From Sphaeroforma arctica JP610 (lineage: Eukaryota): 32,936 nucleotides of DNA. Each line of letters starts with the position of its first letter. Within the stretch, counting starts at the first letter, position 1. The position numbers and the translations under genes are program-made. The stretch spans positions 1-32,936 of the forward strand of contig NW_014039914.1 in the NCBI RefSeq assembly GCF_001186125.1, in the 5' to 3' direction. Under the pieces are notes generated by a model. It did no database searches and was not told the DNA's origin. It saw nothing but the letters and a program-made list of their open reading frames with translations. Shown here piece by piece: positions 5,012 through 32,936 of this stretch.

Positions 5012-5096
5012 CTGCAGACCCACGGCATGAGAGAGTGAGTAAGACATTGAAGTGTTGGTACAGCATTTCAGGTGTGTGATTGAGACGTTGGAGCTT

Positions 5097-10346: not shown

Positions 10347-12399
10347 GAGCCATACCATATGTTCATACATTGTATCATACATACTTGCCATTTTTGAAAT
10401 AAACAATATTATCCTTAGTAGGCTATGTCTAAAAATCAAACAGCTTCGATAAGCACTAAAGGCTCTTTGTCAGAGGAACTGACTCTATTATATTTATGTT
10501 GCTAATAAATATAACGTATTGTTTGTTTTGAAAAATAGTTTTTGTTTGCGATTCTAAACTCAGTTTGGTATCCCAAGCCCTTAGACAGGTTTTCCGAACC
10601 TATATTTTCGTCATCAACATGGTAGAAAATTATTCATGTTTTATAGGACGTGGCAGAAGTTTGGTTAGCAAATCTGCCGGATAGTCGTTAGTAGGCACAT
10701 ATTTAAAACAAAGAAATACAATAATTAGAAATCAATCAATTAACGAACTACAACATTGGTTAATTGGGTCAGCCGATTGATATTCATCTACTGCAATCGA
10801 TTAGTCAGAGAATGTGAATCATCGGTGTTATGCACAGCTGCGATTGGACACTCCAGCCAACCATTGCGTCGTGATACTTGCTGTTGTCTAAAATTGTTCA
10901 AAAAAAATAATTCACGTGTATCTTTCTGGTAGGTGTGGTCCATTAAAAGGGAGAAAAAGGCGATAAACGTTTTTCCAACACTATTACCTATTCTATGTGG
11001 AATAAATTTAGCACTGACCGCGTAGCACTAGTCTTTGTCTGAAGTTATAAATATCGCAGTATACTTTTATTTACAAACATTCAGACCTCTGATTCTGTAC
11101 ATTCTCCTATATAGGCTATGGCGGAATACTTGTTTTGGGATTTTTGGATGGTGCGTATGATACAGATAACCATATCAATCGTCATAACGTTACGAACATC
11201 TTGGCGCACTGCAAAAATAAAAATAAACTCCACACTGACAGTTTCACCTTTGAGTCGTGAAACTTCTTATTATCTACAGTTGCTTATATTCTTACCTATT
11301 TTAAGTGTATCTGATACTGATAGGGATAATATTATTCATTTCAACTTGGATAAAGTTTTATATGTCTACATGTACATCAGGCTTCATATTCGTTGGGATA
11401 GTGATACCTTCTTTTAAAAAAAGGAAAAAATAAATAATGAACATCATCTCAACCCTTTTCTATTCAGCTGACAAAGATTGTATCGCTCGTAAAAAAAATG
11501 ACCGCGTCGCATTACTCTCTACCTAACAATGATCATATCGTATTTGACTTCAATCCACGAAAATTTGAACTTCTGATCGCTCCAATTTTACGTAGATGAC
11601 ATCAAGTGACATATCAGTGAGAAGTTCTTGGCGCACTGCTCCAATGGAAACTTCTGTCAATTTCGTGTCTTTAGAGCTTGCATCTGCCCAGGATGGCGAC
11701 TCGTTTTCAGAAGCGAGACCATTTTAGTCCTCAATTCAAACAATTTCATTCAAAGTCGATTTGGTGCAGTTGTGTCGCATCAAAATATTACCGACAACGG
11801 TCGCGCCGCATTAGACTCAATATACAATCGTCAAATACATCCTCAGGATTTGTTCTACAATCTATTCATATATGATATGTTTAGTTTGCTTCAATAATCC
11901 TTAAACTGTGTTCCTATATTATTTTATACTGTTTTATTATTTGAAATAATGATTGCAAATTTTTTGCTTTATTTTTTTTCTGTACAACACGGCTTAAAAC
12001 AAATTAGAGGGACATTTTCAAGGGGTTGACGTTGACTTGGAGGTCTTAAGTCCCTTGTTCACTTTGGGAGCGTTGCTGGTGCTACTAATCCAAGATGTGG
12101 AGGCAATTCTTTTCACTATAGATACACTGGAATTACTGTTTGTACCCTACGCGTTCGCCGGCGACGCAGAAATCGTTTTCATCGTCGCTTTCATCTGTGG
12201 ACTCCTTTCAATAACCCATTGTGTCTGCTTGGTCTGATATATGTAGAAAATACGAAGAGGCTCGATTGTCTCAATATATATAACTTCACCTATCAATAGC
12301 AAACCATAAATTTGCTGGGTTGTTTTCGGAAAATAAGTACTTATAAACTTCGTCATAATGGTAGTTGGATTCGCTTACTCATCGACTTAATAAATTTTG

Positions 12400-15075: not shown

Positions 15076-15594
15076 TGTTAGAGTGCAATGTAGTAGACTT
15101 TAAATTAAGTGCAAATGTAAGTATTTATTTATGACCTCTCCTTTGGTTTTATACCTAAGGTGTTTGTTCTAGTGTTCAGCCGCTTGAGCTGGCCAGGGTA
15201 AAAACTCATATGATCAGTATGAGAAACCTTATGCAGAACACTTTAACACTTCGATGCTTTTCTATTTCAACTTCTCTGCAACTAAATCTCACGCTGATCA
15301 CATGATGCCTTTCCGCATAGGTTGCGACTCACATAGAACCGCAGGTATTTTTAGAATGTTGCGGTTGACAGACTTAATCCACTCTCGGGAATCGGTTGAG
15401 AAACTTCATCTGCTCTCGGAAGTCGGTTAAGTAATAACTTAACTCTTGGGGAGTATTTTAAGCAACTTGATTAGCTCTCGGGAGTGAGCTAACTCTGATG
15501 ACTTAGCTCTCAGGAGTGAGCTACCTCTGATGACTTCCATAAGTCAAAGATGATTTCTTGCTGTAAAATCTGGCCTGAGACCTGTAGTCTCTCA
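15076..15594. mobile_element. Solo LTR, family 3, copy 1
   Basis: Termini TGTTAGAGTG...CTGTAGTCTCTCA; degenerate 5-bp TSD CACAC/TATAC; homologous to 16759-17160 and 19336-19791. Removing it rejoins the Helitron frame. Confidence 0.8.
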
Positions 15595-15783
15595 TATACC
15601 ATCGGATGGAGCATCAAATGCTTCATTTCCACTATCTACACATTCGTGTGTGTTCATGTGGCAGATGGAAGATTGTTCAGATTCAATGTGTGTGTTTTGA
15701 TTAGCTTGTAAGGTGTCACTACCTACTGTCTAAGCGGTGTCTAAGTTGGCATGTGTTTTCTGATATAACCATTTACTTACACG
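15595..15783 (-). pseudogene. Helitron RepHel fragment between LTR insertions
   Basis: In frame with 16539-16743 once the solo LTR is removed (…ISPWH|VSKWLYQKTHAN…). Confidence 0.65.
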
Positions 15784-16538
15784 TGTAAGTTTCGGTCTAT
15801 CAAGGCGATATTAACGCCTTAGAGTAAATAAACGCTTAGGTTAAGTCTAAGTATATCAAAAATTAACAGTAAATAAACGAAATGAGTCTTCCAGTAAAGT
15901 TAGGTATGCCTCGTGAAAACAGCAATACTCTGAGGGATTGTGAGGCTGAGACGTTGCCTATATATAATCCTCTCAGTACTGTTTTCGCCGAAGGTATTTT
16001 ATTTAGTGTTTCGTTGTCGCTCTATTAGAAGCTATGGTATGTTTCGTTGGGGCGAATCCGAGAGACTCATAAAATCCTATCTTTAGAAAAAAAGAAAAGA
16101 AAAGAAAAAGACTTGATGTCCATAGTTATTGCATTAACCAATAACTTGCCACTTATCAAGAATTACCGACTTAGCCTTCATCAGACTGGCACATCTGGTT
16201 GGCTGAACGGAGGATAAACTAAGCAACGCTAATAGTCCTTAGAAACCTATGTTCGGTTGAGCCATCTCGCTACCGAAGTATTCAGATATAAATAGCTTTG
16301 GAAGGTAAATATAGTTCTATTAATAGAACTAGACAAATTTTATATTTGGTTTTTACTGGGGCCTTTTAATGGCCTTGTCCAAATATCTGATATGTAAAAT
16401 GGAAAAGGTATTAATTAATAAAACCGTTAACAACCATTTAAGGAAAACTGAGTTTATGCACTTTTAAGGGTACGTTTTACGTACTATTAAGAGTACGTTT
16501 ATATTACAAGATTCTAATGTAGAGGCCCGGCTTTTACA
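15784..16538 (-). mobile_element. Solo LTR, family 1 (same family as the LTRs of element A)
   Basis: 755 bp with TGTAA...TTACA termini; 4-bp TSD CACG/CATG (one CpG transition); closely similar to 17818-18714 and 32039-32792. Confidence 0.9.
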
Positions 16539-16758
16539 CATGCCATGGAGATATATACGTGTACATTAAGGAAGTGCTGTAGAAGTCTGATCTTTTAATA
16601 GGAACTGAACTGCTTTTTGTATAGCTATGCAGTCCATAGTATTGATCTGATTTATTATTCTCTGTAGGAATTGTGTCAATTCGGCGTGTGCGCGGTCGTG
16701 TGTGTGTATTGTGTTGGATATTGTTGTGTATGATCAAATGCATTGCATATGATATTCA
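16539..16758 (-). pseudogene. Helitron RepHel fragment
   Basis: Its frame (…SDFYSTSLMYTYISPWH) continues across the solo LTR into the downstream RepHel piece. Confidence 0.6.
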
Positions 16759-17160
16759 TGTTAGAGTGTAAGATGGTAGTCTTTGAATAAAGCGTAATTG
16801 TGTATCTTTATTTACAACCTCACCTTTGGTTTTATACTCAAGGTGTTTGTGCTAGTGTTCAACCGCTTGGGTTGGCCAGGGTGAAAACCCATATGGTCAG
16901 TATGAGAAACCTTTTGCAGAACACTTTAACACTTAGATATTGTTCTATAGCATAATCTCTGCTACTCCAAATGTTGCTTGGCTTTCAGAGCAATTATCTA
17001 CTAGGTATCGGCTTTCGGAGCAATGCTCTCATAGGAGCAAATGTTAACATCATGTGGTTAATAATTTGATCCGCTTTTCGGAGTGACGCAACTCTTGTGA
17101 TTTTATTCAAGAAAAAGAGTTTCTTGCTATTGAAACTTGCTTGAGATCTGTAGTCTCTCA
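16759..17160. mobile_element. Solo LTR, family 3, copy 2
   Basis: Termini TGTTAGAGTG...CTGTAGTCTCTCA; degenerate TSD ATTCA/ATCTA. Confidence 0.78.
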
Positions 17161-17817
17161 ATCTAGAACATCCATGAGAGGGTCATCGGGTTTGCTTATG
17201 TATTTCGAGGTATGGTAGTAAGAATTGATGGCTTGTAAGGCAGATCCCATCAAATACCATGCCTGATTGTACTCAAGCGCAGACATAGCGGCAGAGTTAA
17301 AATCTGGTACATATGTGCCCAAGCTATACATCTATCATCACCACGCCTATGCATGTTTTTTTTATACAGTTAACGGTTGTTCTGTAATGTCCGTAGTCGT
17401 GGTTATGGGCTCTGTGCTGAGAGTATCGTCCTCCTGGTTGTAGGACAAATTTTAAAATTGTGTAATTGGTTGAGTTGTAGAGGATTTCGCCAAACGACAT
17501 CCGATTTTACCAGATTTGCTCTTGGCTCATGTTTATGTGTGTTTATGCACTTGCGTGAGAAATAAATCTTTATCAATATCTTCATAGAAATTTGCAGGGA
17601 AATCACAATCTAGAACCTCTCGTGGGTGTGTAGCTACTGATCGTGGTTCTCTGTCTACGTAAAGATTTAATTCGTGATTATTGCTTTGCATATATTGGTT
17701 GTGGACACTCTGCTTCGCTTTGATTCATTTTTGTATTGAATATCGGTATTCGTGTATGTATACTAGACCTGGATTGAGTGTCTAGTGGTTCGTGCTTCAA
17801 ATTGACGTTACGCACAC
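17161..17817 (-). pseudogene. Helitron Rep (HUH endonuclease) domain fragment
   Basis: QVHKHT*T*AKSKSGKIGCRL at about 17490-17555 matches QxHxHTxTCxK...CRF. YVPDFNSAAMSALEYNQ...INSYYHTSKYISK at about 17190-17315 matches the Rep motif 3 (YxxKYxxK) region. Confidence 0.8.
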
Positions 17818-18714
17818 TGTAAGTTTCGATCTATCAAGGCGATATTAACGCCTTAGAGTGATTAAACGCTTAGGTTAAGTCTAAGTATAGTTAAATTCGA
17901 AATAAATAAACGAAATGAGTCTTGTAGTAAAGTTAGGTATGCCTCGTGAAAACAGCAACACTCTGAGGGATTGTGAGGCTGAGACATTGCCTATATATAA
18001 TCCTCTCAGTACTGTTTTCGCCGAAGGTATTTTATTTAGTGTTTCGTTGTCGCTCTATTAGAAACTATGGTATGTTTCGTTGGGGCGAATCCGAGAGACT
18101 CATGAAATCCTATCTTTAGAAAAAAAGAAGAAAAAAGTACTCTTGATGTCCATAGTTTTTGCATTGACCAATAACTTGCCACTTAGAATTACCGACTTAG
18201 CCTTCATCAGACTGGCACATCTGGTTGGCTGAACGGCGGTTAAACTAGGTAACGCTCATAGCCCCTAGAAACCTATATTCGGTTGAGCGATGTCCATAGT
18301 TTTTGCATTGACCAATAACTTGCCACTTAGAATTACCGACTTAGCCTTCACCAGACTGGCACATCTGGTTGGCTGAACGGAAGTTAAACTAGGTAACGCT
18401 CATAGTCCCTAGAAACCTATATTCGGTTGAGCAATCTCGCTACCGAAGTATTCGGATATAAATAGATTTGGAAAGTAAATATAGTTCTATTAATAGAACT
18501 AGACCAAATCTTTATGTTTGGTATTTTACTGGGGCCTTTTAATGGCCTTGTCCAAATATCTGATATGTAAAATGGAAAAGGTATTCATTAATAAAACCGT
18601 TAAAAACAATTTAGGAAACTTATGTTCCTCGTACTATTAAGAGTACGTTTATAGTTTACGACTGCTTAAAAGTACGTTTATTACAGAGTCTAATGTGGAG
18701 GCCCGGCCATTACA
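17818..18714 (-). repeat. 3' LTR of element A (family 1) with an internal ~144-bp tandem duplication
   Basis: TGTAA...TTACA termini; 18145-18288 is repeated at 18289-18432. Confidence 0.92.
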
Positions 18715-18729
18715 CAGCCCCCACCCAGC
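18715..18729 (-). promoter_or_regulatory. Polypurine-tract-like primer site of element A
   Basis: The minus strand reads GCTGGGTGGGGGCTG immediately before the TGTAA of the 3' LTR. Confidence 0.65.
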
Positions 18730-18853
18730 TTTGAGACCTAGGAGAAGCAAGTTGCTCACTCAAGCTGATTATGGGTCAAAAAGCGAGAAAAGAAAAACGG
18801 GTCGAAAACATTAAGTAGCATAACGTATAGTTAATGTTTCTCAGGCGGAGAAG

Positions 18854-20880
18854 TTAAGCGTTCTCGGTTACCCTGTGAGTTTTGGGCTTAGGTCCAGTAG
18901 GTCCGTGGTGGTCGACTGGACGTTTCTTACGCTTCAGTGTCTTAAGCACATATGAAGGGTGAGCATTAAAGCTCGGGATAAAAACTGTAGGCGGGTAAGT
19001 TTAAACTTCCGTGCCTTCAGACGATGGAAACATGCTATCTTTTTCAGCTTGTGACTTATGCAGCCGTTTACGCCATTTTCGATTGAAGGCTTTTAAATAA
19101 TCTAGATTATCGAAGGCATCTGAAGTCAACTCAGCGATTGTGCCGTCTATAAAACGTGTACGATAGTATGTATAGCCTCCCTTATCCGTTCTTCATATAA
19201 TGTCTTTAAATTCAGAACGATCAAGAGGGGCATTAGAGTCATGTCTTCTTGCGAGAATAATCTCAGTAGTCGGAATCCGATTAGTGCCTATATTTAAAGC
19301 ACTGGAACCGTCGGGGTTATTAACCTCATAGGTTCTGAGAGACTACAGTAGTAGAAGTATTTATATATACGTTAATAACGTTTTACGTCGTCAGCCCGAG
19401 AGTAATTTGGGATTTGTTCTCAAATTAATAAAAGTATAGATGGGTCAGCCCAAGAGAACGTAAGAGTAATTTGAGACTTCTTCTCAGATTATTCTATTTA
19501 TAGGATACGGGCCATCGGCTAGCCGAGAGCCGAGGTCCGAGACTGAGTGTAGTAACAGAGAATATGATATATTTATTTCTAGAAAATATATCCGAGTGTT
19601 AAAGTGTTCTGCATAAGGTTTCTCATACTGATCATATGAGTTTTTACCCTGGCCAACCCAAGTGTTTGAACACTAGTACAAACACCATCAGTATATAACT
19701 GAGGGTGAGATCATAAATAAATTCATTCGAATGCACCATACTTTAGATACACTAGCACTTTACTATTAGTCGCCCACACCGCACGCTATCATGTTCCACT
19801 TTTAACGTCAGCTACAGAGAGTATATATGGTCCTATCCATTTAGATGTTAAAACAGTAGCATCAGAATTACGTTGACGGATGTTAACTCTGTCTCCAACC
19901 TGATACTCTGCTATCTTTTTGGTAGCATTCCATCTATTTTGCCTCTTTAATAAGGCAATATTGCGTGTTTCTCGCAAGCAAGGATATACAACGTTATAAA
20001 TACGTTGTACCTTCTCTAACCATGGTAACTCGTGGTGATTAGGCTCGTCCTTGTTAAAAGGTATTTGTAACTCACTATATCTACCACGAAAATAGTGAGC
20101 TGGTGTTGTACCTGTAACCGGATCAGCACACTAGTTCATCTGTGCTTGTACCCACTTAAGGTTGTATGGCCAATCATCTGCATCATCCGTTAATGCAGTA
20201 CGTAAGAAGAACATAAGTCTTCTATGGCGCGTTTCATTCGTGCCTTGTGTTTGCGGTTTATATAGTACACCCCTTTTATGGCACATGCCTGATACGAGTA
20301 CTAACGATTCCATTACGTCATCGCAGAACTCGCTACCGTTATCAGTGCACATTATACCTGGCCACCCGTGGTCAGCAAAGACTTGGCAACATAATTCTGC
20401 CACGGTCTGCGTATTCGTGTCCATTAAAGGATAGAGCAAGTTATACCGTGACGCCACATCAAAGAAGTGCATACGTAACGGTCGCCTGTGTGCTCGGACG
20501 TAGGCAGGTCGCCATGGAACATCTTCAGTCACACTCTTAAGCGGTGCGAACCCAGAGCGCTTAATCTGGTTGAGATCACAGTCTGTACATGACTGATATA
20601 CTCTGTCAACTAAAGTTGCCAGCTTAGGGTGCGCGATCCCATTTCGCTTAGCATCTTTAAGTGCGTCTACTACGTTCTGGTGCTTCAGCTTATGGTTTTG
20701 CGTCAGCCAAGCAAGAATGTTTTCATCATTCTGCTCCTCTAGAATAAAGGTAGGGTGTTGAGAATCCACTTGCGTGGTCTCTAAGTCTGTAGTGTTTCCA
20801 GACTCCTGCCCTTCTTTCGCATGAGTATCATAAGAGCGCTCGTGTGCATTTGATACACCTGACTTATTTAATAGTCGCAT
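18854..20880 (-). pseudogene. Element A integrase (HHCC, DDE core, GPY, chromodomain-like tail), interrupted by a solo LTR
   Basis: H-x3-H...C-x2-C (NHKLKH...CTDC); FDVASRY; GWPGIMCTDNGSEF; YKPQTQGTNE; KWIGPY...SGT|YEV rejoined across 19336-19791. The segment carrying the first DDE Asp appears deleted near 20510. Confidence 0.88.
19336..19791. mobile_element. Solo LTR, family 3, copy 3 (opposite orientation to copies 1 and 2), inserted in the integrase of A
   Basis: The minus strand reads TGATAGCGTG...CTGTAGTCTCTCA; 5-bp TSD GAACA/GAACC. Confidence 0.85.
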
Positions 20881-21149
20881 TCTATGCTTCGGGAATATTT
20901 TTCATTAATCCCTTTAAAAATAGGGGTTGAAAGCCTTCGGGCTTGGACTTTATGTTATTAAACAGAGTCCTAGCTAGAGACTGATGCTTCTTAACTGTAG
21001 TGTCATTAGTAGATTGTATTTCTTGTGCACAGACTTCAAGTGCTGTGTTGCCTTTGAACTGCTTAACGTTCAATTTAGTAGAGAGTGGAATCTCTGATTC
21101 TTTGACCTTGTTAAGGAAGGTCTCAGAAGGGGTCCATTTGGTTGTTCCA

Positions 21150-21560
21150 ATGGGACTTATACAACATATTATAGTATGTCTCCAGGGCGTCTTCTGGACG
21201 GCTCGGGTACCCTGATATAGGAAAGTATCTACTTCTCTATCTAAATATATTGGCTCGCATTGTATCATACTTATTACTGTATTGAGCCATGGATCTTTAC
21301 TCCGTAATGGGCAACACACCGTGATGGTAGCTTTGTGTATATGAACATAATTTAGTAATTGGGCAATTAACTGCCATGGTGGATTAGCCCACGCATTATG
21401 GTCGGAGACGTCTAGTTGAAAGGCATCTCCTAAAGGATGATTTTGAAGTCCTGTAATTCTTAAGTTGTGCATTATAATCTGCAGCAAACATGTCAACTGT
21501 ATGTGGCCCAAATATCTTTTGAGCCAGTTCGAACCACCTGGGGTTACATTTCCAATCAGT
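21150..21560 (-). pseudogene. Dam-like DNA amino-(N6-adenine)-methyltransferase domain within the pol of element A
   Basis: TDWKCNPRWF...FGPHTVDMFAADYNAQL (motif I region), GDAF, and NAWANPPWQLI (NPPW at 21374-21385), followed by ATITVCCP...PW. One extra A in an A-run near 21442 splits the frame. Confidence 0.88.
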
Positions 21561-21980
21561 GGCTAGTATTTCACGTACGGATTCATTAAAGTCCGGTACA
21601 AAGCGTGATAACATATCCGGTAAATGGTTATGTATCCCTGGTAGATGTTTGATATCAAAATAAAACTTTAATATTGTATCATGACATCGGCTCAGTAATA
21701 GAGAGTCTGGCTTCATTTCCTTCATATATTGAAGGGACTTCTGATCACACATCAGCATAAAAGCTGTTCCGTATAAGTAATCGCGGAAGTGTGTTAAAGC
21801 TGCTACTATGGCTAGTAGCTCTTGCTTCACAGTTGGATAATTCAACTGTGTTGCATTCATTGCTCGGCTAAAGAATTGTATATACCTAGGTTTATTATCT
21901 ATAACCTGGTATGGTACACCTCCGAGTGCTAAGTCTGATGCGTCCGTTGCTATTTCAAAAGGCACGCCATAGACTGGTCC
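21561..21980 (-). pseudogene. Element A RNase H (Ty3/Gypsy type)
   Basis: TDASDLALGG, FFSRAMNATQLNYPTVKQELLAIV, CDQKSL, HNHLPDMLSR. Confidence 0.92.
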
Positions 21981-22880
21981 TTATACAACAGGGGTTTGTT
22001 GGACTGCGTGCTTGAGCGCTTTAAATGCGTCATCACACTCTTTAGTCCACAAGTCTCCTAGTTTGCCTTTATGACATCTTAAGTGTCCAAAGGGTTTAAG
22101 ATAATCAGCCAAGTGTGGTACTCCATCTGAAAAGAAGTTTACAAACCCACACATGCTGTTCACATCTCTTCCTGTAGTTGGTGTTCGCCAATCTAACAGG
22201 TGTTCCACCTTACCGGGGTCGATTTTAATACCTTCTCCAGATATACGGTAGCCTAAGAGTTGTATTTCGCTTATGGCGAAGTGACATTTCTTCTCGTTAA
22301 TCTTGAAGTTTTGTTCGTTGAGTCTCTTAAGGACTCGCCTGCCTAATGTAACATGTTCGCCCTTAGTCTTAGAAAAGATGACTATGCCATCTATATAGAC
22401 TTGTACGTTAGGCATGTCTGCAAACATTTCCTCCATTACTTGTTGGAAGAATGCTAGTAAGGAGTGCAACCCGAAAGATGCACCTCTAAACCTGTATTGT
22501 TTACCTTTCCAGGTAAATCTAAAATACTTACGATGTGGTTCATAAATTTGCATTTGATGGTACTCCTGTGTCAGGTCTATTGATGTAAACACCGTAGCAC
22601 TTTCCATTCGTCTCAGTAACTCGTTTATACGAGGGAGATGGAAACTATGAGTCGGCAATAACTTATTTATTGGACTCATATCTAGACATACTCTGACTTT
22701 CTTAAATGTTCCGTCAGAGTTGTATTGATCAACTGCCAATAATGCTAAGTTAACTGGCGTTTGTTGGTAATTGATTTCGATTACCCCATCGGATCACCAT
22801 TTCTCAACTTGTTCTTTAACTACAGCTTCGTGTCTCCAAGAAACATAGCTTCTTAAAGGGCATTTGAGCTTAGTAAAGTC
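21981..22880 (-). pseudogene. Element A reverse transcriptase
   Basis: RVCLDMSPIN, LPRINELL, SIDLTQEYHQ, FGL, YIDG (22386-22397), KCHF...LLGY. Contains stops and a frameshift. Confidence 0.93.
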
Positions 22881-22883
22881 TAC

Positions 22884-23453
22884 CTAGGTTAAGTCAAGGC
22901 TGACATATCCGTCGTTAAAACAGAATTTTGCCCAATCTGTGATTTTTATCTTCTTATTTACTAGAATCAGATCCATGATTTTGTCCGCAAAGTCAGGTAT
23001 TAATGCCTTGACTGTGTCTGACGGGGGCTTATATGGTTTCAGACAGTTATCGTCTGATTGATCCTTTAATGGAACTATGTTATTTGGTAAACCAGATACG
23101 GTTATACCTAGAGTGAGTAAGGCACTCATTCCGACTATTAAGTCGTACTTCTGTGACATCTTAACTATCACAGCTTGGGTAGTGATATTTCTATCATCGG
23201 CCAGGGAGATTTTAACATCTGTGGCCATGGCATCACACTTAGAAGTTTTGTCATCTGCTAAGATTAGGTGAGTAGTTTGAGTTCGCCTTTCAATGTCTTT
23301 CATTAATGCAAAGCGGTCGGATATACATGAAATTCCTGAACCAGGATCAATCAATGCAAGGACTTTATTTCCATTGCAATATACAGTGATTATTACACGC
23401 TCGTTTAAAGAGTCGTTGCATTTCCTTTGTAACGATTGTACCTGGTAGTACTT
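22884..23453 (-). pseudogene. Element A aspartic protease region
   Basis: ALIDPGSGISCIS ... YDLIVGM. Confidence 0.85.
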
Positions 23454-24479
23454 TCACTCCAACTTAATGTCGGGCTTTTTGTCACAAGACTTGGCGTGAT
23501 AGCCATTGGTCTTCTCACACTTGTCACACTTAGTAAGAAAGTGTGTACAGGTGGGTGCATGTCTGCCATTCTAATAACCGTTAGGGGTCAGTTGGTACAT
23601 GTCATACCTACACTGTGCGTCGGCACATTTCTTAATTTCCTTAAATGGAGGTTCCTTGTCCTTCGTCTCCGCGCGTGCCTGTTTATTGAGCCGCGTTGAT
23701 TGAGTGGAGTCTCGACCACGTATCTTGTTAGGACGCGTCTAATGAGGTTTATCATCTGACGTCTGGCGTGAGAGGTATCCTTGATCAGGGAGCTCGCGCG
23801 GTTTATTTACCGCCTTTTACTCGGTGTGCGGGGAAAAGAGTGAATACAGTATCATAAAGCTGTTCCCACGTAAGTCGGGATAGAAAAAACTTTGTTTCTT
23901 GTCCCTTGTCTCGAGCCTCAGTAGCGTATTAACGTCGCAACTCGGTGTACAGACTTTCACGGTCGTTGTTCCCTGTGTTCTTACAGAAAACATGCATAAC
24001 CAGGAACTCGTACCATCGCTGCGCCTTGTCATTTGTTATATCTGGACGTTTAAGGTCAGCATCAAGTTTCAGAATTTAAGTCTGAATAGGAGTATTCTCA
24101 ACTGGTTTAGTTAAGATTGAACTCAGTCCTGGACTTCGCCTGTCCTTGCTTAATAAGGACGTAACCAACCAACACACAGCTAGCCAGTCACGACAAGTGT
24201 CTAGCTCATGCTGGTGTCGCTGCAGGATCAAGTAACTTGTTCCTGTAGGGTCAAACGACTGCATTAAAGCAGAAATCCATTGCTGGGGAGCGATATAATT
24301 CGTCTCCAGCATGACCTTAAACGCACTAAGCGTATGGGTTAGCGTGTCGAGGTCATGGTTGTTTATAAACTCGATCTGCTTGCTGTTGGCATCCCAGTTC
24401 GACTTAAGTCGACTGATCTGTCCCTTGTACTTCTGGTTATCCCGATGGTTTTGCCTACGTTGGGCCCGAAGTAGCTGAT
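23454..24479 (-). pseudogene. Element A gag, C-terminal part (capsid-like region and Cys/His knuckles)
   Basis: Helical ORF 24076-24479; CADAQC-x16-HAPTC and CDKCEKTNGYHAKSC; ends at TGA 23454-23456. Confidence 0.7.
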
Positions 24480-25441
24480 TGTAAAAATAGCGGGTTCCTA
24501 ATAGTAGTTGCACAGTTAACGTATATTATAAACGTATATAATATTAACGTTCATACTTATATTACTGAAATACGTTTAACGAATTGGGCATGAACAAGAA
24601 TTGAGATATTCAAGATTCTGAACATGTGACAGTACTCAGTAGAGTATGGGACTCTACTGTGGACAATTAGGTTCTTTTCCAAATATAGATTGGTTTTTTC
24701 ACTGAAATTAGAATTGTACTTAATATAGGAACGACACCGATCTGACACCTGAAAATGACACTTTGGGAATCTCTAATTAATAGGAGTACCANNNNNNNNN
24801 NNNNNNNNNNNNNNNNNNNNNNNNNNNNNNNNNNNNNNNNNNNNNNNNNNNNNNNNNNNNNNNNNNNNNNNNNNNNNNNNNNNNNNNNNNNNNNNNNNNN
24901 NNNNNNNNNNNNNNNNNNNNNNNNCAAGATAATCCACCGAGAAAAGGACAGGATCAGAGTTATTAGAATTTAGAACAACATGGTTTTGATTCCTCCTAGC
25001 CAGCCAACTAGATGTGCCCGTCTATGCCTTAAATGGGATGGGGAGCTAGGTACCAAGTGATGGGGTTTAGGTGCAGATGTATACTGCACCAGCTGGTGTT
25101 TTGATTTTATTTTTATTTTCTTAAGTTGGACTTAGAGGTATTTTATTGGATAGTTTGATTAGGTAATAGTTTCGAGGCGTGAAATGTAAATTATGCGTCC
25201 AATGAAATGAAATCTAGTCTTAGTAACTAAAACATAAATAAATCTAGACCGAAGTAGTGAGTGATTAGAGCGGAACATATAGACATTAGTCTCAGTCTAA
25301 AATCCCCTAATCTTTTGCTCATTACCAAGGGCTGAAGCTAAACTTATTTAACATTTTGCATTTTAACGTATTAACGTATTGTCTTATTAACGTAAACATC
25401 TTGGTATCGTATAGTCAGCCTAGAGGAGACCGACTTTTACA
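24480..25441 (+). repeat. 5' LTR of element B (family 2); includes assembly gap 24792-24924
   Basis: 7-bp terminal inverted repeat TGTAAAA...TTTTACA; the 3' end AGACCGA..TTACA resembles the family-1 LTR end; second copy at 30962-31521. Confidence 0.8.
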
Positions 25442-25472
25442 TAATTTTAAGTTTATATACGCTATCGATATT

Positions 25473-28242
25473 ATGACGAAAGGGAAAAAATAAGGCAGCG
25501 AATGTAGCTAGGGCTACAAACGTGAAAGGATTTACTGTAGGCGAAGAAAAGCAGAAAACACCCCCGGCACCATCAGTGGAAGCTGAAGCAACTGAGATCA
25601 CGCCGGTACAACCGGTACCAACTCTGACTAAACGGAAACGTAAGAAGTTGGTTGACTCGGGTGTAGGTGCATCCGGAGGTAATGTGACTACGAAGCCACA
25701 GAAGCCACCAGCGAAGAAGGCGAAATCTTGAAAGGGAAAAGCCGAGAAAACGCAATTCTCGGAAAATTCAACCTCAGAGGAAGTGCGACATGCACTGAAA
25801 TCAGATGTATTATCCCCACTAGTGGACACGCGCACAGCACGTAGACAAGATCCTACCTATCATATGATAGCAAGGGATAGGAGAGCCTTCCTGAAGAACT
25901 ACCAACCAATGGTACATGAAATGAGACCTACTAAGCAGCGGAAGAAAAAGCAAGCCGCAGCGAAGGATCAAAGTCATGGTGAATCAGGGTAGGATGACTC
26001 GGAGGATGAGCCAATGGCACAATCACTGTTGGATCAACCCCAAATCAACGTAACGGAAGAACAACTGCGTTTCGTAGTTATAGGTCCGGATGATGTGGAC
26101 CATACACTTCACCATCAGGACGACGAATCGGACACCAGGTTGGATTCACAATTCCTGCATTTACCCAAAACACCACGCCGACCGGCTTGGCGACAGAACT
26201 TTGATCTGGGCCATCCATACCAGACTCAGATTGATATCCAGGAGGAGGGTCAACGAGAGTTGATCCGTCAGAAGGCCAACCGGGCATGGGTGTTTCGAAA
26301 CACGTATGGAACGTACTTTCCAGATGCAATGAAGACCAAACCGGATGGTACAATCTCACCGAGGTATGTAATAAATGCAGCGGTAAGAAATTTTGGACTC
26401 GATTTGTTTAGAGATTCTAAATTCTACAATCGGCTAGTGACAATGAAAACTGACGAAGGTAAACAGAAACGCAAACTTTTCCGTCGATTTCAGAAGATAC
26501 TACCGAAGGTATTCGGAACGAGGAGAGATGGAAGTTTTGTACACTTAATTTGGTACGCAATTCGGGATCGTCTTGGAGACCTTCCCGACTTGATATCAAA
26601 CCATTTGGTACTCTATCAAGCCATGTTGGCGTTTAAGATGTTGTCAGACAATGGAGAGGCAAACAGAATCCGATCTTCCTCATCCGAAGCTCAACCTTCT
26701 CCTGGATTGGACGCAACAGCAATGTCGCGAATGGCAACTGAACAGGAGCCTAATCCAAATCCACCACCGGAAAGAAATCCACAGAGTGCCCCAGAGGTAT
26801 TTCCGAAGGACAAACCGACCGAAGAGCCTAAACCTGATCAGGTGGAAGCTAGAAAATCTTTGTCGTCATCGGGAGACAGTTCGCCCTCAGTGACTATTCC
26901 AACGACGACAAAAGATGCTGTCCCATCAAAAGCGTTCATTCACATTGAACAGGTCGACGGATCAAAGGATGAGGCAGACAACTATCTGCATGGTCAGATG
27001 CAGTTAGAAAAGAAGGGATCAGATCACTCTAGCAGTGATCTGAAAATTGCTGAATTCACTGTTCAAATGAACAAGGCTGAGGCAGCTTCACTCGAGGCGA
27101 TGGATCTAGGTAGGATTGATGCCGCTTCTCCAGACCAAGATTGATTCAAAACTAAGAGTGATTCAGACCGAGAAGGCTGTGGAAGGCAAGAAGTTTGTAA
27201 AGGACATAGGTAAACTACCAACGACATACAGATCTGATCGAAAGGACCGGAAGGCTCCAATCGATACTAGCAGTCTGGCGTTGTTATCTAGGTCTTTGAC
27301 AGAGTTTGGACAGATTATGCTTACAGCCAATCTACGGAAGAACCTATGGTTCGAAGCAGCGCAGCAGAGCTTTAAGCCGTCCTCTTACAAGTATAACAAG
27401 TTAGAGAAGGCGAAACAAGCGATCACTAAGCTGAAAACGTGGAAAGAGCAGAGTGAGATGATCATCCACTTATTTTTGACGGACCCTCGACCGGAATTGC
27501 TTGTATCGATCATGATACCACCGGAAGAAGGAACGCCAGTGTCCCACTACTTATTAGAGTTGGACACACACATGTCACGGGCCCAGACTCAGGAGATATC
27601 ACCTGATAAGCTAGGCATGTGTGTACTATGTGAACAGACAATTTTTTGGTCCAACCTACATAGGAGAGATCAAGAGATTCTGTACGCCGATATGCATCAA
27701 TCTTACCCGGACAAGGTACGAGAGATCTCCATTGAGGGACCTGCCTACGGTATAATTAAGCTAGCGGACTTAACCTGAGCATAATTTTACTCGAGAGCGG
27801 ATCAGACGTTTACCAAAAGACATAGTTCCGTGGTGAAAGTCACTAATGCTCAGAAGAAGGTCAGCGGAAATCTTACCGGAGGATCAGGCAATGGTCGAGA
27901 CTCTCAATCCACTAATGGAGGTCAAAAGGTACACAAAGGGGGTGACAAGGGTAGCAATAAGAACAAAAATATAAATGGTTCTGAAGGCAACAAGATCAAT
28001 GTCATCCCTAAGGGTAACCAGACCAACAGAAATGGACCGCCAAGCTCAGGTATAGGGAGGTCAAGAACTGTAGTGAGACGGATTGCAATTGGCGAATGAC
28101 CAAACATGAGCCGAATGCCAGATGGAATGGAAGGCCCGCAGAAAAGTGTAAGCACTTTATCGAGAAGTTTGCCGACTGTACTGGGACTGGAGGTTACCTC
28201 AAGCATACATGCAAGGTGAAACCAAAAGTTGAAGTTAAGTGA
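25473..28242 (+). pseudogene. Element B gag-like ORF (about 920 codons, broken)
   Basis: Starts ATG ACG AAA (MTKG(K)NKAA after a 1-nt frameshift). Chains ORFs 25522, 25783, 26014, 27116 and 27830, then degenerate knuckles at about 28070-28212, and ends at TGA 28240-28242. Confidence 0.7.
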
Positions 28243-29999
28243 CAAACATACCGGGTCCTGTCACTAAGACAAAAGGACGCACCTCAAGACGAGCGTGTAA
28301 TCCTAGATATACGAGTCATCGGACATGAAATAAAAGCGTTGCTGGATCCGGGCTCGCAAATTTCATGTATATTCTCTAGATTCTGTAAAATGACAGACGT
28401 AACTCGTAAGTCAGAGCCTAAAAACCCTAAAAGAAATGGCAATCGATCTTAGGTTTACATTGACAGACCAACGTTATATAGTTACTAAGGCAGTCATATG
28501 TAACACTTCACCAGACTATGATCTCATAGTAGGTATGAGTGATTTATTGTCATTCGGTATCACAATTACAGGCATACCTACTAACATTGAACCACAGGAG
28601 GATCAGTCGGACGACAACTTGTTGAAACCGGATAAACCTTCGAAGACTGTGAAGGAGATGCTCCCTCACTTCACAAAGAAACTCAAGGACTTGATTTTCT
28701 AGAACGACAAGATTCAGATCACTGACTGGGCTAAGTTCAAATTCAATAACGGATACGTTAGTCTAGACCTGACGAGAGTAGATTCTCGAAGCTGAAGTGT
28801 CCTACACGTAACTATGTTGCATGGCGTCATGAACAGGTCGTACGAGAACAGGTTAAAGCATGGTTAGATGACGGAGTGATCGCAGTCAACTACGAGCCGA
28901 CTCCCGTCAACCTAGCGCTTGTAGCCGTCGACCAATTCAACTCTGACGGGACGCTGAAGAAAGTTCGGGTGTGTTTGGATATGAGCCCAATTAACGCTTT
29001 GCTACCAACACACAATTTTCACTTACCTAGGATAAACGAACTACTCAGGTGCATGGAGGGAGCTAAGATATTCTCCACTATCGACCTGAAGCAGGGCTAC
29101 CACCAGATGAAGATCTACAAACCACACCAGAAGTATTTCACCTTTTGGACAATGTACAAGTATACATTGATGGCATTGTGGTATTCACTAAAACCAAAGA
29201 GGAGCACGAAAGGGTTATGCGAGAGGTTCTAGACAGACCTAACAAGCACGACTTTAAGGTCAACAGTAAGGAATGTCACTTCGGTGTTCACGAGATTCAG
29301 CTGTTGGGTTACCGAGTATCCGAGGATGGAATCATGATCAATCCCGGGAAGGTCGACCACTTGCTAGACTGGAGAACTCCTACCACGGATAAGGATGTCA
29401 ACAGCATGTGCGGATTCGTCAACTTTTTGTCTGACGGAGTACCACACCTGGCAAGTTATTTAAAACCCTTTGGACATTTGGGATGTCATAAAGGCAAACT
29501 AGGCGCACTGTGGACCAAAGACTGTGATGACGCATTTAAGCAGCTCAAAACAGTGGTTCAGCAGACACCAGTAGTCCAGCCACCAAATGATGGTATTCCA
29601 TTCATGGTAGCAACAGACGCGTCCGACATGGCACTCGGCGGCGTCTTGTATCAAACGATTGATGGTAAACCAAGATATGTACAGTTATTTAGCAGGGCTA
29701 TGAATTTGTCTCAGATCAATTACCCAACCGTGCAACAAGAGCTTTTGGCGATTGTTACTGCACTCACTCATTTTAAGGACTATCTATATGGCACGCACTT
29801 TAACGTGCTATGTGATCAGAAGTCATTGCAACACCTAAAGGACATGAAACCTAACTCACAGTTAGTCAGTCGATGGCATGACACGATCGCGAAGTTTTCT
29901 TTCGGCATAACACATATACCGGATATTCACAATCACTTACCCGACATGTTGTCTCGCTTCGTACCAGACTTTAACAAGATGATTAGGGAGTTACTAGCT
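28243..29999 (+). pseudogene. Element B protease, reverse transcriptase and RNase H
   Basis: ALLDPGSQISCI; YDLIVGM; RVCLDMSPIN; STIDLKQGYHQ; YIDG (29163-29174); TDASDMALGG; HNHLPDMLSR. Confidence 0.92.
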
Positions 30000-30350
30000 A
30001 CAGATTGGATGGCCAATCCTAGGTGGTTTAAGATCGCTGACAACAATCATAATGCGCAACTGCCGAGGTACCGGACACTGGAACATCCGGAAGGAGACGG
30101 GAGAATACCTGGGCAAATCCTCCATGGCTATTAATACCACAGTTCCTAATTATATACATATTCGAGATGCTACCATCACGTTGTGTTGTCCCCTAAGACA
30201 CTCAGATAAATGACTATCACAGTTGATCTCAATGATACAATGTGAGCCGATCTATGTGGATAGAGAGGTAGATACTTTTCTCTACCAGGGTACCCGTGCA
30301 GTCCAAAAGACGCCTTGGCGACATACTATTGTATGTTGAATAGGTCCAGT
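30000..30350 (+). pseudogene. Dam-like methyltransferase domain within the pol of element B (internally deleted)
   Basis: TDWMANPRWF, NAQLPRY, ENTWANPPWLLI (NPPW at 30116-30127), ATITLCCP, DREVDTFLYQGTRAVQKTPWRHTI. Confidence 0.85.
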
Positions 30351-30779
30351 TGGAACAACCAAGTGGGCACCATCCGAGACTTTCAAACAGAAGGTTGAGG
30401 AATCCAAGATTCCACTATTGAATCCTAAGTCTCTATCAGAGACTGGGACAACACAAGCACCTGCAGTATGTGTTACCGAGATACAGGCAAATTCAAAGGA
30501 ATCAAAGAGGAGCGCAACACTAGCGAAAGCCTTCTACAAAAAGATCCGGTCTGACAGGGAAACTGCATACCAAGCAGAATCTCGATTGCTTAAGCAATTG
30601 ATGAATGACTTTCCCGAGGTATATGATCATGTGACTCAACTAATGGATAGATCAAACATTAGTCGGATTCACGATGTAGAAGCTTTAGGCGAGATTGGAC
30701 AAGGCGAGTCTTCGAGTCCAGGTGATGACGCGGTGGAATCATCACCTCCTGATTTCAATGTAACAAGTAAATCACAGGA

Positions 30780-30961
30780 GGCGATTCTGAAGTGGTTGAG
30801 ACAAAATCATGCTCTTTAAGCACATGAATAAGGTTAGAACTGAGAAAGATTGCAAGAGGTACGGAATCGTACACCCGAACCTCAAGCAATATATATATCA
30901 GGTGTATCACGAATGGAACAACTGCAAAGTTAACCGGATCAAGCGCTACGGATACGCACCA
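30780..30961 (+). pseudogene. Element B integrase N-terminal zinc-binding fragment
   Basis: ILKWLRQNHAL..HMN...GIVHPNLK...WNNC...IKRYGYAP aligns with A's ILAWLTQNHKLKHQN...GIAHPKL...CTDC...IKRSGFAP. Confidence 0.75.
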
Positions 30962-31521
30962 AGCTGGTGCCGTATACATCTGCACCCAAACACCATCACT
31001 TGGTACCTAGCTCCCCATCCCATTTAAGGCATAGACGGGCACATCTGGTTGGCTGGCTAGGAGGAATCAAAACCAGGTTGTCCTAAATTCTAACAACTCT
31101 GATCCTGTCCTTTTCTCAGTAGATTATCTTGCTCTGCGATCATTATCGAATTATAACATAGGTTTGTACCAACAACCATTTCATGCCTGAGACCCTCTCT
31201 CACGGTACTCCCATTAATTAGAGATTCCCAAAGTGTCATTTTCAGGTGTCAGATTTTTATCATTCCTATATTATATCCAATTCTAATTTCAGTGGAAAAA
31301 AACCAATTTATATTTGGAAAAGCACCTAATTGTCCACAGTAGAGTTCCATTCTCTACTGAGTACTATCACATGTTCAGAATCTTGAATATCTCAATTCTT
31401 GTTCATGTCCAATACGTCAAACGTAATCTAGTATTTTATGTATACACGTTAATACGTTAAAACGGAAATAATATACGTTAACTGTGCAACTACTATTAGG
31501 AACCCGCTATATATTTTTACA
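30962..31521 (-). repeat. Inverted partial family-2 LTR
   Basis: Reverse complement of 24480-25094; begins TGTAAAAAT on the minus strand at 31521. Confidence 0.9.
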
Positions 31522-31910
31522 TCTTCTGGTTCCGGTGTAGGTACCTTCTGAGATTCGTCTTTGTCCCCTATAATTGGGGACTTTTCTTTCTCAGTTTCGT
31601 CAGAAGAATTGGTTGGGGCGTCTTGAGACGTGTCCCTTGTCTCACTTCTTGGCTTCGTAAATGCAAGCTTCAGAGTTGAGGCAATAGTTGGCCCTCGGGC
31701 TCTATCTGTAGGGGTAGTTTCCTTAATCGGAGTGGCTACCTTCTTATCGGAGGCATTGTCCTGACTATTATTGTCGGAGACAAGTGCTTCGGCTACGGTG
31801 CGTTTAAACGCATCGGCAGCGGTAGCTGTTGCAGCGCTAGTAGCGTCTTTTTCCATCTTTTTACGTTCGGCCTTGCGTTTCTTTGCAGGCTTATTGTCTT
31901 ACTTTGTCAT
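31522..31910 (-). pseudogene. Element A gag, N-terminal part
   Basis: ATG lies about 130 nt after the 5' LTR; MTK*DNKPAKKRKAERKKMEKD... parallels B's MTKGKNKAA start. Cut by the family-2 LTR. Confidence 0.65.
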
Positions 31911-32038
31911 AATTTTAACTTATGACTTTGGTCGTATTCTCTTAAGGAATGACTGTGCTTAAGAAACATTTTGTGGTAGTTATCTACCTTTACGTTTAAG
32001 TAGTGTAAGTATTTAATACCTTTGCTATCTTTAAAATG

Positions 32039-32792
32039 TGTAAATTTCGGGTTATCAAGGCAATATTAACGCCTTAGAGTAATTAAACGTTTAGGTTAAG
32101 TCTAAGTATAGTTAAGTTCGAAATAAATAAACGAAATGAGTCTTGTAGTAAAGTTAGGTATGCCTCGTGAAAACAGCAACACTCTGAGGGATTGTGAGGC
32201 TGAGACATTGCCTATATATAATCCTCTCAGTACTGTTTTCACCGAAGGGATTTTATTTAGTGTTTCGTTGTCGCTCTATTAGAAACTATGGTATGTTTCG
32301 TTGGGGCGAATCCGAGGGACTCATAAAATTATATCTTTAGAAAAAAGAAAAGTACTCTTGATGTCCATAGTTATTGCATTAACCAATAACTTGTCACCTA
32401 TCAAGAATTACCGACTTAGCCTTCATCAGACTGGCACATCTGGTTGGCTGAACGGCGGTTAAACTAGGTAACGCTAATAGTCCCTAAAAACCTATATTCG
32501 GTTGAGCAATCTCGCTACCGAAGTATTCATAAATAAATAGATTTAGAAAGTAAATATAGTTCTATTAATAGAACTAGACCAAATCTTTATGTTTGGTATT
32601 TTACTGGGGCCTTTTAATGGCCTTGCCCAAATATCTGATATGTAAAATGGAAAAGGTATTAATCAATAAAACCGTTAAAAACCATTTAGGAAACTTGAGT
32701 TCTTCGTACTATTAAGAGTACGATTATAGTTTACGTACTGCTTAAGAACACATTTATAACATAGAGTCGAATGTGGACGCCCTGCTATTACA
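32039..32792 (-). repeat. 5' LTR of element A (family 1)
   Basis: 754 bp, TGTAA...TTACA; shares diagnostic variants with 17818-18714; followed by TSD ACAC. Confidence 0.92.
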
Positions 32793-32936
32793 ACACGACG
32801 GTGTACGGATGTAGCATTGTTGTCCAGACCATGAACTATGTGGTTATGTGTATGTATTAAGCGTAGATGCATTTCTTATGTGCGTGTGCGCGCGAAATCA
32901 TCTGTGCATACCTTCATCTGATTAATATTATCCGTG
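32793..32936 (-). pseudogene. Continuation of the Helitron Rep region beyond element A
   Basis: Removing A and one TSD gives an open frame ...ATSVHRRV|RNVNLKHEP... leading toward the Rep motifs. Confidence 0.5.

What the first reader, a model, noticed from the sequence alone, without database searches (positions are those of the whole stretch)
21150..21560. Integrase-type Gypsy LTR retrotransposons with a Dam-like DNA methyltransferase inside pol
Seen: in element A, and again in element B (30000-30350), RNase H runs in frame into DW..NP.WF...GPHTVDMFA...NAQL...DAF...WANPPW.LI...AT...CP, then into the HHCC integrase region. A has true TG...CA LTRs, a PPT, a TSD and a DDE core. Across 24 codons (DREVDTFLYQGTRAVQKTPWRHTI) A and B differ at 10 synonymous sites and no replacement sites, which points to purifying selection on this region. 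Known: NPP(Y/F/W) is the catalytic motif IV of amino-methyltransferases, and a phage-Dam-like domain after RNase H is characteristic of DIRS-type elements, which use a tyrosine recombinase. I am not aware of it as a standard feature of integrase-encoding Ty3/Gypsy elements. Inference: a retrotransposon lineage that marks its own cDNA or new insertions with 6mA, for self-recognition, protection or mimicry of active chromatin. Both copies here are pseudogenised.
Basis: partly seen in the sequence, partly recalled or inferred. Interest (0 to 1): 0.9.

Follow-up and report, generated by a model that had tools for sequence, protein, structure and literature searches.

The report
Decayed Gypsy retrotransposon with methyltransferase domain
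Two broken copies of a retrovirus-like jumping gene carry a conserved adenine-methyltransferase-like domain between RNase H and integrase, which likely marks the element's own new DNA; the domain is real, but a 2026 preprint already described this kind of element.

Summary
Element A (17818-32792, minus strand) has TG…CA LTRs (94% identical), a PPT and a 4-bp TSD, and reads protease-RT-RNase H-methyltransferase-integrase. B is a truncated relative nested in A's gag.

Corrections: the domain is not in frame (one frameshift in A; deletions, frameshifts and stops in B). A lacks the first integrase catalytic motif. The 24-codon window is the best of 432, but the whole domain is as constrained as RT and RNase H (pN 0.18 vs 0.16-0.17).

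Two intact ~1,400-aa relatives show a genuine single-ORF fusion. The domain passes Pfam Dam and folds as an N6-adenine methyltransferase; the RT groups with integrase-bearing elements, apart from DIRS-like ones.

The architecture is in print as 'DAM-LTR' (bioRxiv, May 2026), with the same 6mA model and a negative E. coli assay; this scan also noted it on other DNA. Additions here: a degenerate C-terminal chromodomain that Pfam misses, and the RNA cap methyltransferase PCIF1 as best solved structural match, which keeps an RNA substrate open. Host not identified. Verdict: new member of a known kind; interest 0.27.

The parts
17814..17817 (.). Target-site duplication, left (ACAC)
17818..18714 (-). 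3' LTR of element A, TG...CA, with an internal 144-bp tandem duplication
18715..18732 (-). Polypurine tract next to the 3' LTR
18869..19333 (-). Integrase C-terminal region of A, with stops (44% identical to P0001 1225-1396)
19069..19216 (-). Degenerate chromodomain-like segment at the end of pol
   Evidence: profile 6.8 bits in A (weak), 17.7 in P0001, best of 600 shuffles 9.1; model of the P0001 segment matches chromodomains, Z 8.0, rmsd 2.3 over 58 residues
19331..19793 (.). About 461-bp insertion in A's integrase; part of it has two inverted relatives at 15123-15264 and 16807-16947
   Evidence: skipped by contigs in 4 of 4 runs
19792..20700 (-). Integrase of A: HHCC 20697-20578, rve hit 20469-20278, first catalytic motif missing, one stop
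21150..21560 (-). Dam-like N6-adenine methyltransferase domain of A; D-x-F-A at 21494-21483, NPPW at 21385-21374; one frameshift near 21445
   Evidence: relatives
21681..21962 (-). RNase H of A
   Evidence: RT_RNaseH E 3e-26
22242..22679 (-). Reverse transcriptase of A, Ty3-like; catalytic motif altered (YIDG)
   Evidence: RVT_1 E 7e-22; best PDB match Ty3 RT, E 4.5e-35
23118..23390 (-). Aspartic protease of A
   Evidence: PF13650, PF13975, PF08284
23450..24486 (-). Likely 3' part of gag of A, with a Cys/His knuckle, broken
   Evidence: position and six-frame reading; no Pfam hit
24487..31511 (.). About 7-kb nested insertion in A's gag, bounded by about 600-bp inverted repeats (24487-25098 and 30957-31511), carrying element B
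25477..30957 (+). Element B: truncated relative (gag-like ORFs, protease, RT, RNase H, Dam-like, start of integrase); about 69% nucleotide identity to A in RT-RNase H
30000..30340 (+). Dam-like domain of B; NPPW at 30116; D-x-F-A deleted; two frameshifts and two stops
31512..31920 (-). Likely 5' part of gag of A
   Evidence: open frame that ends at the insertion; inferred from position
32039..32792 (-). 5' LTR of element A, TG...CA
32793..32796 (.). Target-site duplication, right (ACAC)
15784..16538 (-). Solo LTR of the same family (92-93% identical); flanks CACG and CATG

Best explanation
These are dead copies of a multi-copy Ty3/Gypsy LTR retrotransposon (a 'DAM-LTR') whose pol carries a conserved phage-Dam-like methyltransferase domain between RNase H and integrase, which likely methylates adenines in the element's own cDNA so that new insertions would start in an active-looking state. 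Shown here: LTR/TSD/PPT anatomy, domain order, single-ORF fusion in intact relatives, Gypsy-side RT, predicted methyltransferase fold, retained NPP[WF] motif and purifying selection. Inferred from general Ty3/Gypsy biology: the domain is packaged with pol in the particle and meets the cDNA or RNA:DNA intermediate in cis. Inferred from the 2026 preprint's correlative data in other material: 6mA is written, then kept by host AMT1 after integration, which favours transcription. Inferred and weak: the degenerate chromodomain helps steer integration.
For: Intact relatives P0001 (1400 aa) and P0002 (1376 aa) are 69% identical to the queries over the domain and hold RT-RH-Dam-rve in one ORF. 19 of 152 proteins collected carry both the domain and an integrase. 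The isolated P0002 domain passes Pfam Dam (30.5 bits, cut-off 28.1) and 50 of 57 aligned homologues hit Dam. AlphaFold model pLDDT 94; top matches among viral models are phage DNA N6-adenine methyltransferases (E about 1e-8, TM about 0.7). NPP[WF] is kept in 16 of 19 integrase-bearing proteins, and none of the 40 listed variant rows (of 41) among related contigs falls in the NPPW codons. A vs B: pN 0.18 in the domain, 0.167 in RT, 0.159 in RH, 0.416 in the linker; pS 0.71. A's RT sits with 13 integrase-bearing RTs (SH-aLRT 100), apart from 51 DIRS-like RTs. The preprint reports more 6mA and expression on DAM-LTRs than other LTRs in two ichthyosporeans, and association with AMT1 in 9 of 13 species.
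Against: No activity is shown for any member: representative domains gave no 6mA increase in dam-minus E. coli. The domain is small (about 135 aa), and the preprint says it aligns to only part of prokaryotic Dam. Intact relative P0001 has CPPW, and 3 of 19 integrase-bearing proteins depart from NPP[WF]. Iyer et al. regarded DIRS methyltransferase domains as PCIF1-derived and likely inactive. The best solved structural match is an RNA enzyme, PCIF1/CAPAM. The host, its AMT1 status and its 6mA were not determined here. 6mA enrichment could follow from transcription rather than cause it.
Confidence: 0.5

Rival explanations
1. The domain is a non-catalytic or weakly catalytic nucleic-acid- or protein-binding module. 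It is kept for a structural or targeting role in pol (binding the transcript or cDNA, or mimicking PCIF1), and any 6mA on insertions is written by the host.
For: Negative E. coli assay. Iyer et al. call DIRS domains likely inactive. CPPW in the intact, otherwise conserved P0001; NIPF and HPPW in two others. Purifying selection fits either role.
Against: NPP[WF] is kept in 16 of 19 integrase-bearing and 46 of 51 DIRS-like proteins, and D-x-F-A in 16 of 19 and 48 of 51, across 30-45% identity. These counts come from a search with an NPPW query, so they lean towards intact motifs.
Confidence: 0.27
2. The domain is an RNA adenosine methyltransferase of the PCIF1/CAPAM kind. It marks the element's own genomic RNA (cap-adjacent or internal A) or the RNA strand of the hybrid, not DNA.
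For: PCIF1/CAPAM is the best solved match in two searches (E 3e-5; Z 10.1, rmsd 2.7 over 134 residues, against Z 7.4 for T4 Dam and 7.3 for E. coli Dam). Viral PCIF1-like models follow the phage Dam models (E about 1e-4). 3 of 57 homologues hit PF12237. Iyer et al. place the DIRS domain in the PCIF1 clade. It would explain the negative DNA assay. The preprint's main text never mentions PCIF1.
Against: By profile (50 of 57 Dam vs 3 of 57 PCIF1) and by predicted fold (ranks 1-13, where named, are phage methyltransferases, mostly annotated as DNA N6-adenine enzymes) the phage family is closer. No close relative turned up in the PDB by sequence, so PCIF1 may rank first only because the phage family is not represented. 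The domain is far smaller than PCIF1 (482-residue chain) and matches only its methyltransferase core.
Confidence: 0.15
3. The arrangement is an artefact: a DIRS fragment nested in a Gypsy element, a chimeric assembly, or a chance NPPW.
For: The region is a nest of insertions, B is bounded by inverted repeats as DIRS elements are, and both copies are broken. The window's own pieces do not pass the Dam cut-off.
Against: Same position in A and B, which differ by about 30% in DNA; single-ORF fusions in P0001, P0002 and other relatives; no tyrosine recombinase hit in the 48 N-free ORFs of 62 aa or more from 17800 on; protease and integrase present.
Confidence: 0.02

Closest known systems
DAM-LTR retrotransposons (Fernandez-Moreno et al., bioRxiv 10.64898/2026.05.21.726589, 22 May 2026; main text read in full, supplements not seen)
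   Same: Ty3/Gypsy RT, integrase, PF05869-type domain with NPP plus an aromatic residue, related to DIRS domains. The preprint's Chloro-Ochrophyta clade is described with DAM between RT and integrase. Same proposed 6mA self-marking model.
   Different: Which of the five lineages this family belongs to is untested. It has a degenerate chromodomain that Pfam misses, whereas the ichthyosporean lineage is described as lacking chromodomains. No cytosine methyltransferase hit in P0001 or P0002, so it is not an EpiLTR.
DIRS1-like tyrosine-recombinase retrotransposons (PMC3783388, passages read)
   Same: RT-RNase H-methyltransferase order in pol; homologous domain (most of the top 150 hits are RT-Dam or Dam-only proteins without integrase).
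   Different: DIRS lack protease and DDE integrase, encode a tyrosine recombinase and have inverted terminal repeats. A has direct LTRs, a TSD, a PPT, protease and integrase, and no recombinase hit.
Phage N6-adenine DNA methyltransferases of Pfam PF05869 / PHROG 111
   Same: Profile match and closest predicted fold; DW..., D-x-F-A and NPP[WFY] motifs.
   Different: These are phage genes at 13-23% identity in the structural alignments; here the domain is embedded in a polyprotein and no activity is shown. That they methylate GATC-type DNA sites is recalled, not tested.
PCIF1/CAPAM cap-specific adenosine methyltransferase
   Same: Best solved structural match (Z 10.1); same clade according to PMC4738411 (passages read).
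   Different: 13-15% identity; PCIF1 is a much larger cellular RNA enzyme, usually with a WW domain.
Chromoviruses (Ty3/Gypsy with a C-terminal chromodomain)
   Same: SH3-like region followed by a chromo-fold segment at the integrase C-terminus.
   Different: The segment is below Pfam detection in P0001 and P0002 and lacks the usual 'KW' and 'TWE' residues seen in relatives; histone binding is untested.

Membership tests
Ty3/Gypsy LTR retrotransposon | Direct LTRs with TG...CA ends, TSD and PPT | tested here: met
   17818-18714 and 32039-32792, 94.4% identical, ACAC TSD, PPT; element A only
Ty3/Gypsy LTR retrotransposon | pol order PR-RT-RH-IN | tested here: met
Ty3/Gypsy LTR retrotransposon | RT of Ty3/Gypsy type | tested here: met
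   Best PDB matches are Ty3 RT (E 4.5e-35; next family 3.5e-18); groups with integrase-bearing RTs. No named reference elements were in the tree.
Ty3/Gypsy LTR retrotransposon | HHCC plus DDE integrase | tested here: met
   Complete in P0001 and P0002; in A the first catalytic motif is missing; B stops in the zinc finger
Ty3/Gypsy LTR retrotransposon | tRNA primer-binding site after the 5' LTR | tested here: inconclusive
   No TGG-type site after A's 5' LTR; a TGGTATC lies upstream of B's first ORF; no host tRNAs to compare
DAM-LTR (2026 preprint) | PF05869 Dam domain in the pol of a non-DIRS LTR element | tested here: met
   P0002: E 7.4e-6 in the whole protein, 30.5 bits as isolated domain; P0001 E 7.6e-5; window pieces alone are below cut-off
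DAM-LTR (2026 preprint) | Catalytic-pocket NPP plus aromatic residue | tested here: met
   NPPW in A, B and P0002; CPPW in P0001
DAM-LTR (2026 preprint) | Domain homologous to DIRS-type domains while RT is Gypsy-type | tested here: met
   the LTR label needs two changes on the Dam tree; direction of transfer not inferred (no root)
DAM-LTR (2026 preprint) | Assignment to one of the five named lineages | not testable with these tools
   Hits carry no organism names, no genome is held, and the preprint's supplements were not seen
DAM-LTR (2026 preprint) | 6mA enrichment on insertions in an AMT1-encoding host | not testable with these tools
   No modification data or host genome available
DIRS1-like retrotransposon | No protease and no DDE integrase | tested here: not met
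   Both present
DIRS1-like retrotransposon | Tyrosine recombinase ORF | tested here: not met
   No Phage_integrase hit in the 48 N-free ORFs of 62 aa or more from 17800 on; a heavily decayed one could be missed
DIRS1-like retrotransposon | Inverted terminal repeats | tested here: not met
   A has direct LTRs. The inverted repeats around B cut its integrase mid-domain, so they are not its own termini
EpiLTR | DAM plus cytosine methyltransferase plus chromodomain | tested here: not met
   No cytosine methyltransferase hit in P0001 or P0002
Chromovirus | Chromodomain at the integrase C-terminus | tested here: inconclusive
   No Pfam Chromo hit; clade profile 17.7 bits for P0001, 9.2 for P0002, 6.8 for A, best shuffle 9.1; fold match Z 8.0; Foldseek found nothing at E <= 0.001
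Active N6-adenine methyltransferase | Methyl transfer to a defined substrate | not testable with these tools
   Fold and motifs only

The most novel reading that the evidence does not exclude
The 'Dam' of DAM-LTR and DIRS elements is not a DNA methylase but a miniature PCIF1/CAPAM-type RNA adenosine methyltransferase. It acts in cis on the element's own RNA or RNA:DNA intermediate inside the particle, and in this clade it is paired with a cryptic chromodomain. That would make retrotransposons writers of their own RNA marks and explain the failed E. coli DNA assay.
Probability: 0.15. Interest if true: 0.78.

Novelty: new member of a known kind. Interest (0 to 1): 0.27.

Why it matters
DAM-LTRs suggest that transposons can exploit 6mA, an active-chromatin mark in many unicellular eukaryotes, instead of only evading silencing. 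The class was described in May 2026, so this window is a further example. Its value is practical. It gives codon-level evidence that the domain is as constrained as RT and RNase H. It yields a natural pair of intact relatives with NPPW and CPPW for assays. It flags two points that the preprint's main text does not cover: structural kinship to the RNA enzyme PCIF1, and a cryptic chromodomain in elements that Pfam would call chromodomain-less. The open question is the substrate, not the architecture.

Tried and rejected
No whole genome is held, so genomic copy number, host genes (AMT1) and host lineage could not be examined. The protein atlas gave no result for P0002. Pfam and PHROGs on the window's own broken pieces gave no passing Dam hit. 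PHROGs also missed the domain in whole P0001 and P0002 but hit relatives P0005 and P0014. A profile of the domain found no related PDB sequence. The sequencing-run search listed no RNA holder, which says nothing on expression; contig depths are not copy numbers. Rfam found 0 matches in 14500-32936. Dinucleotide and GATC counts showed no consistent pattern pointing to a target motif (GATC observed/expected 0.76 in A pol, 1.82 in B pol). A primer-binding site for A was not identified. dS in RT and RNase H is saturated, so dN/dS could be computed only for the methyltransferase domain (about 0.09, near saturation). Look-ups of earlier findings by place and by sequence were empty. Rejected: DIRS membership, EpiLTR membership, nested-fragment artefact. 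Literature searches showed no clear description of Dam in integrase-type LTR elements earlier than the 2026 preprint. One sentence in PMC6338049 lumps DAM and DCM with both Gypsy and DIRS but cites DAM for DIRS only. The library lacks most subscription papers.

Full report
1. What is in the sequence. Six-frame reading and Pfam give, on the minus strand, protease (23390-23118), RT (RVT_1 E 7e-22), RNase H (E 3e-26), a weak Dam match in the same ORF as RNase H (E 0.18, below cut-off) and an integrase core (E 5e-4). Self-comparison shows three copies of one LTR. The pair 17818-18714 and 32039-32792 reads TG...CA on the minus strand, is 94.4% identical (704 of 746 positions), is flanked by ACAC on both sides, and has a polypurine tract next to the 3' copy; 15784-16538 is a solo LTR. 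Element A therefore spans about 15 kb, of which about 7 kb is an insertion in gag (24487-31511) bounded by about 600-bp inverted repeats and carrying element B. B is about 69% identical to A in DNA over RT-RNase H, has no paired LTRs here and stops in the integrase zinc finger.

2. Corrections to the observation. The domain is not a single frame. Against intact relatives, A has one frameshift near 21445; B has lost the D-x-F-A motif and most of the DAF segment and has two frameshifts and two stops. Related contigs lack A's frameshift in 4 of 4 runs and 3 of 4 runs (X1 was laid in both), so it is not a family feature. A also lacks the first catalytic motif of the integrase, carries an insertion of about 461 bp in the integrase that contigs of 4 of 4 runs skip, and has an altered RT motif. 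The 10 synonymous and 0 replacement differences are exact, but that window is the only one of 432 with no amino-acid difference.

3. The domain is real and selected. A search with the window's C-half found one intact 1400-aa polyprotein, P0001, among 19 candidates (69% identity). A search with P0001's domain added P0002 among 56 candidates. Both hold RT, RNase H, Dam and rve in one ORF, with complete YLDD, HHCC and DDE motifs. The isolated P0002 domain scores 30.5 bits against Pfam Dam (cut-off 28.1). A library-wide search gave 1657 homologues at E <= 0.001, of which the best 150 were listed. Of the 152 proteins then in hand, 19 also carry an integrase by my profile; I scanned 35 of the 152 against Pfam. 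Between A and B, pN is 0.18 in the domain (111 codons), 0.167 in RT, 0.159 in RNase H and 0.416 in the following linker (26 codons), while pS is 0.71 or more. Four-fold sites differ at 54-77% and second positions at 12-14% in all four conserved regions. Among variants in related contigs I scored 32 of the 40 listed rows, dropping five rare in run X1, two outside the domain and one at the break: 8 of 10 differences near-private to A are replacements, whereas 15 of 22 shared more variably are synonymous. This fits decay after insertion on top of earlier constraint. No listed row falls in the NPPW codons (40 of 41 rows shown).

4. Fold. The model of the P0002 domain has pLDDT 94. Against viral models, ranks 1-13 are, where named, phage methyltransferases, mostly annotated as DNA N6-adenine enzymes (E 1e-8 to 3e-6), followed by viral PCIF1-like proteins (E about 1e-4). 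Against solved structures the best match is the RNA cap methyltransferase PCIF1/CAPAM (E 3e-5; Z 10.1, rmsd 2.7, 134 residues), ahead of KsgA/Dim1 (about 8), M.TaqI (7.6), T4 Dam (7.4) and E. coli Dam (7.3). No close relative turned up in the PDB by sequence, so this ranking partly reflects what has been solved. The fold is that of an amino-methyltransferase; it does not settle the substrate.

5. Gypsy, not DIRS. A's RT matches Ty3 RT best (E 4.5e-35). I built a tree from 65 of the 152 proteins with a long RT match plus A; it has no named references, and P0028 and P0056 fell below my cut-off. A groups with 13 integrase-bearing RTs and one fragment (SH-aLRT 100), apart from 51 RT-Dam proteins with short tails that I label DIRS-like by architecture. 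In the Dam tree (77 rows; bootstrap not fully settled; unrooted) integrase-type elements fall in two places, and A's family lies in the larger group. This fits more than one exchange with DIRS-like elements but does not give the direction. No tyrosine recombinase hit was found in the 48 N-free ORFs of 62 aa or more from 17800 on. DIRS are defined by a recombinase, inverted termini and lack of protease and integrase (PMC3783388, passages).

6. A cryptic chromodomain. A profile from four Pfam-recognised chromodomains hit 7 of 10 clade tails above the inclusion threshold, but not P0001 or P0002. A second profile from the clade scored P0001 at 17.7 bits, P0002 at 9.2 and A at 6.8, with the best of 600 shuffles at 9.1, so only P0001 is clear by sequence. 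The model of P0001's tail (pLDDT 77) matches chromodomains over its last 60 residues (Z 8.0, 7.5, 7.1), though Foldseek found nothing at E <= 0.001. I read this as a degenerate chromodomain of unknown binding ability.

7. What is known. The first literature search returned Fernandez-Moreno et al., bioRxiv 10.64898/2026.05.21.726589. I read the whole main text; its supplements, which hold the sequences and trees needed for lineage assignment, were not seen. It names DAM-LTRs, claims the first report of DAM in non-DIRS LTR elements and defines five lineages. Iyer et al. (PMC4738411, passages) place the DIRS domain in the PCIF1 clade and consider it likely inactive; the preprint's main text does not mention PCIF1. 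My counts argue against general loss of the motif (NPP[WF] in 16 of 19 integrase-bearing and 46 of 51 DIRS-like proteins), with the caveat that the query carried NPPW. Background on AMT1 and 6mA is from passages of PMC12695648; passages of PMC11673190 and PMC6338049 added nothing earlier. The scan's own notes show the same kind of element on other genomes; I saw them after finding the preprint and checked only their citation.

8. Mechanism. Most likely (0.5): pol is processed in the particle, the domain acts in cis on the cDNA or hybrid, and the 6mA seed is kept by host AMT1 after integration, favouring transcription. Every step after the anatomy is inferred from general Ty3/Gypsy biology or from the preprint's correlations in other material. 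Rivals: a non-catalytic binding module (0.27), an RNA methyltransferase of the PCIF1 kind (0.15) and an artefact (0.02). The host, its AMT1 status and expression of the family remain undetermined.

9. Verdict. A real, selected domain in two dead copies of a DAM-LTR retrotransposon. New member of a known kind; interest 0.27. The boldest reading not excluded is an RNA substrate (probability 0.15, interest 0.78).

Noticed in passing
window 24487-25098 and 30957-31511: About 600-bp inverted repeats (88-94% identical) bound a 7-kb insertion in A's gag and cut B inside its integrase zinc finger. This looks like a foldback or composite element carrying a retrotransposon fragment, inserted at an A/T-rich near-palindrome.
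   Followed up: partly
window 31037-31054 vs 18215-18232: The inverted-repeat unit shares an 18-bp motif with A's LTRs (seen by eye); unexplained.
   Followed up: no
window 22397 (-) and 29163 (+): Both copies read YIDG at the RT catalytic motif although they are about 30% divergent; intact relatives read YLDD. Independent hits at the same codon, or a shared history.
   Followed up: partly
P0001 residues 690-700: An otherwise intact 1400-aa polyprotein has CPPW in place of NPPW, a natural candidate for an inactive or altered-specificity variant.
   Followed up: partly
window 19069-19216 (-); P0001 1263-1315: Degenerate chromodomain at the end of pol, clearer in 7 of 10 clade tails tested, missed by Pfam in P0001 and P0002.
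   Followed up: yes
P0028 and P0056: Polyproteins with protease (hit in P0056), an Exo_endo_phos domain and Dam placed before RT, then RNase H and an integrase zinc finger: a different DAM-LTR layout whose Dam groups near this clade.
   Followed up: no
window 12700-14600 (-): Decayed Pif1-like helicase fragment (E 0.002), probably a Helitron remnant.
   Followed up: no
window 9094-10420: Small element with 36-bp inverted ends around a 351-aa ORF (9291-10346) without a Pfam hit.
   Followed up: no
window 15053-15283, 16743-16966, 19580-19722: Three copies of a short dispersed repeat; one lies in the insertion that splits A's integrase.
   Followed up: partly
window 1-6450: Dense block of different minisatellites (18-100-bp units) followed by an assembly gap.
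   Followed up: no
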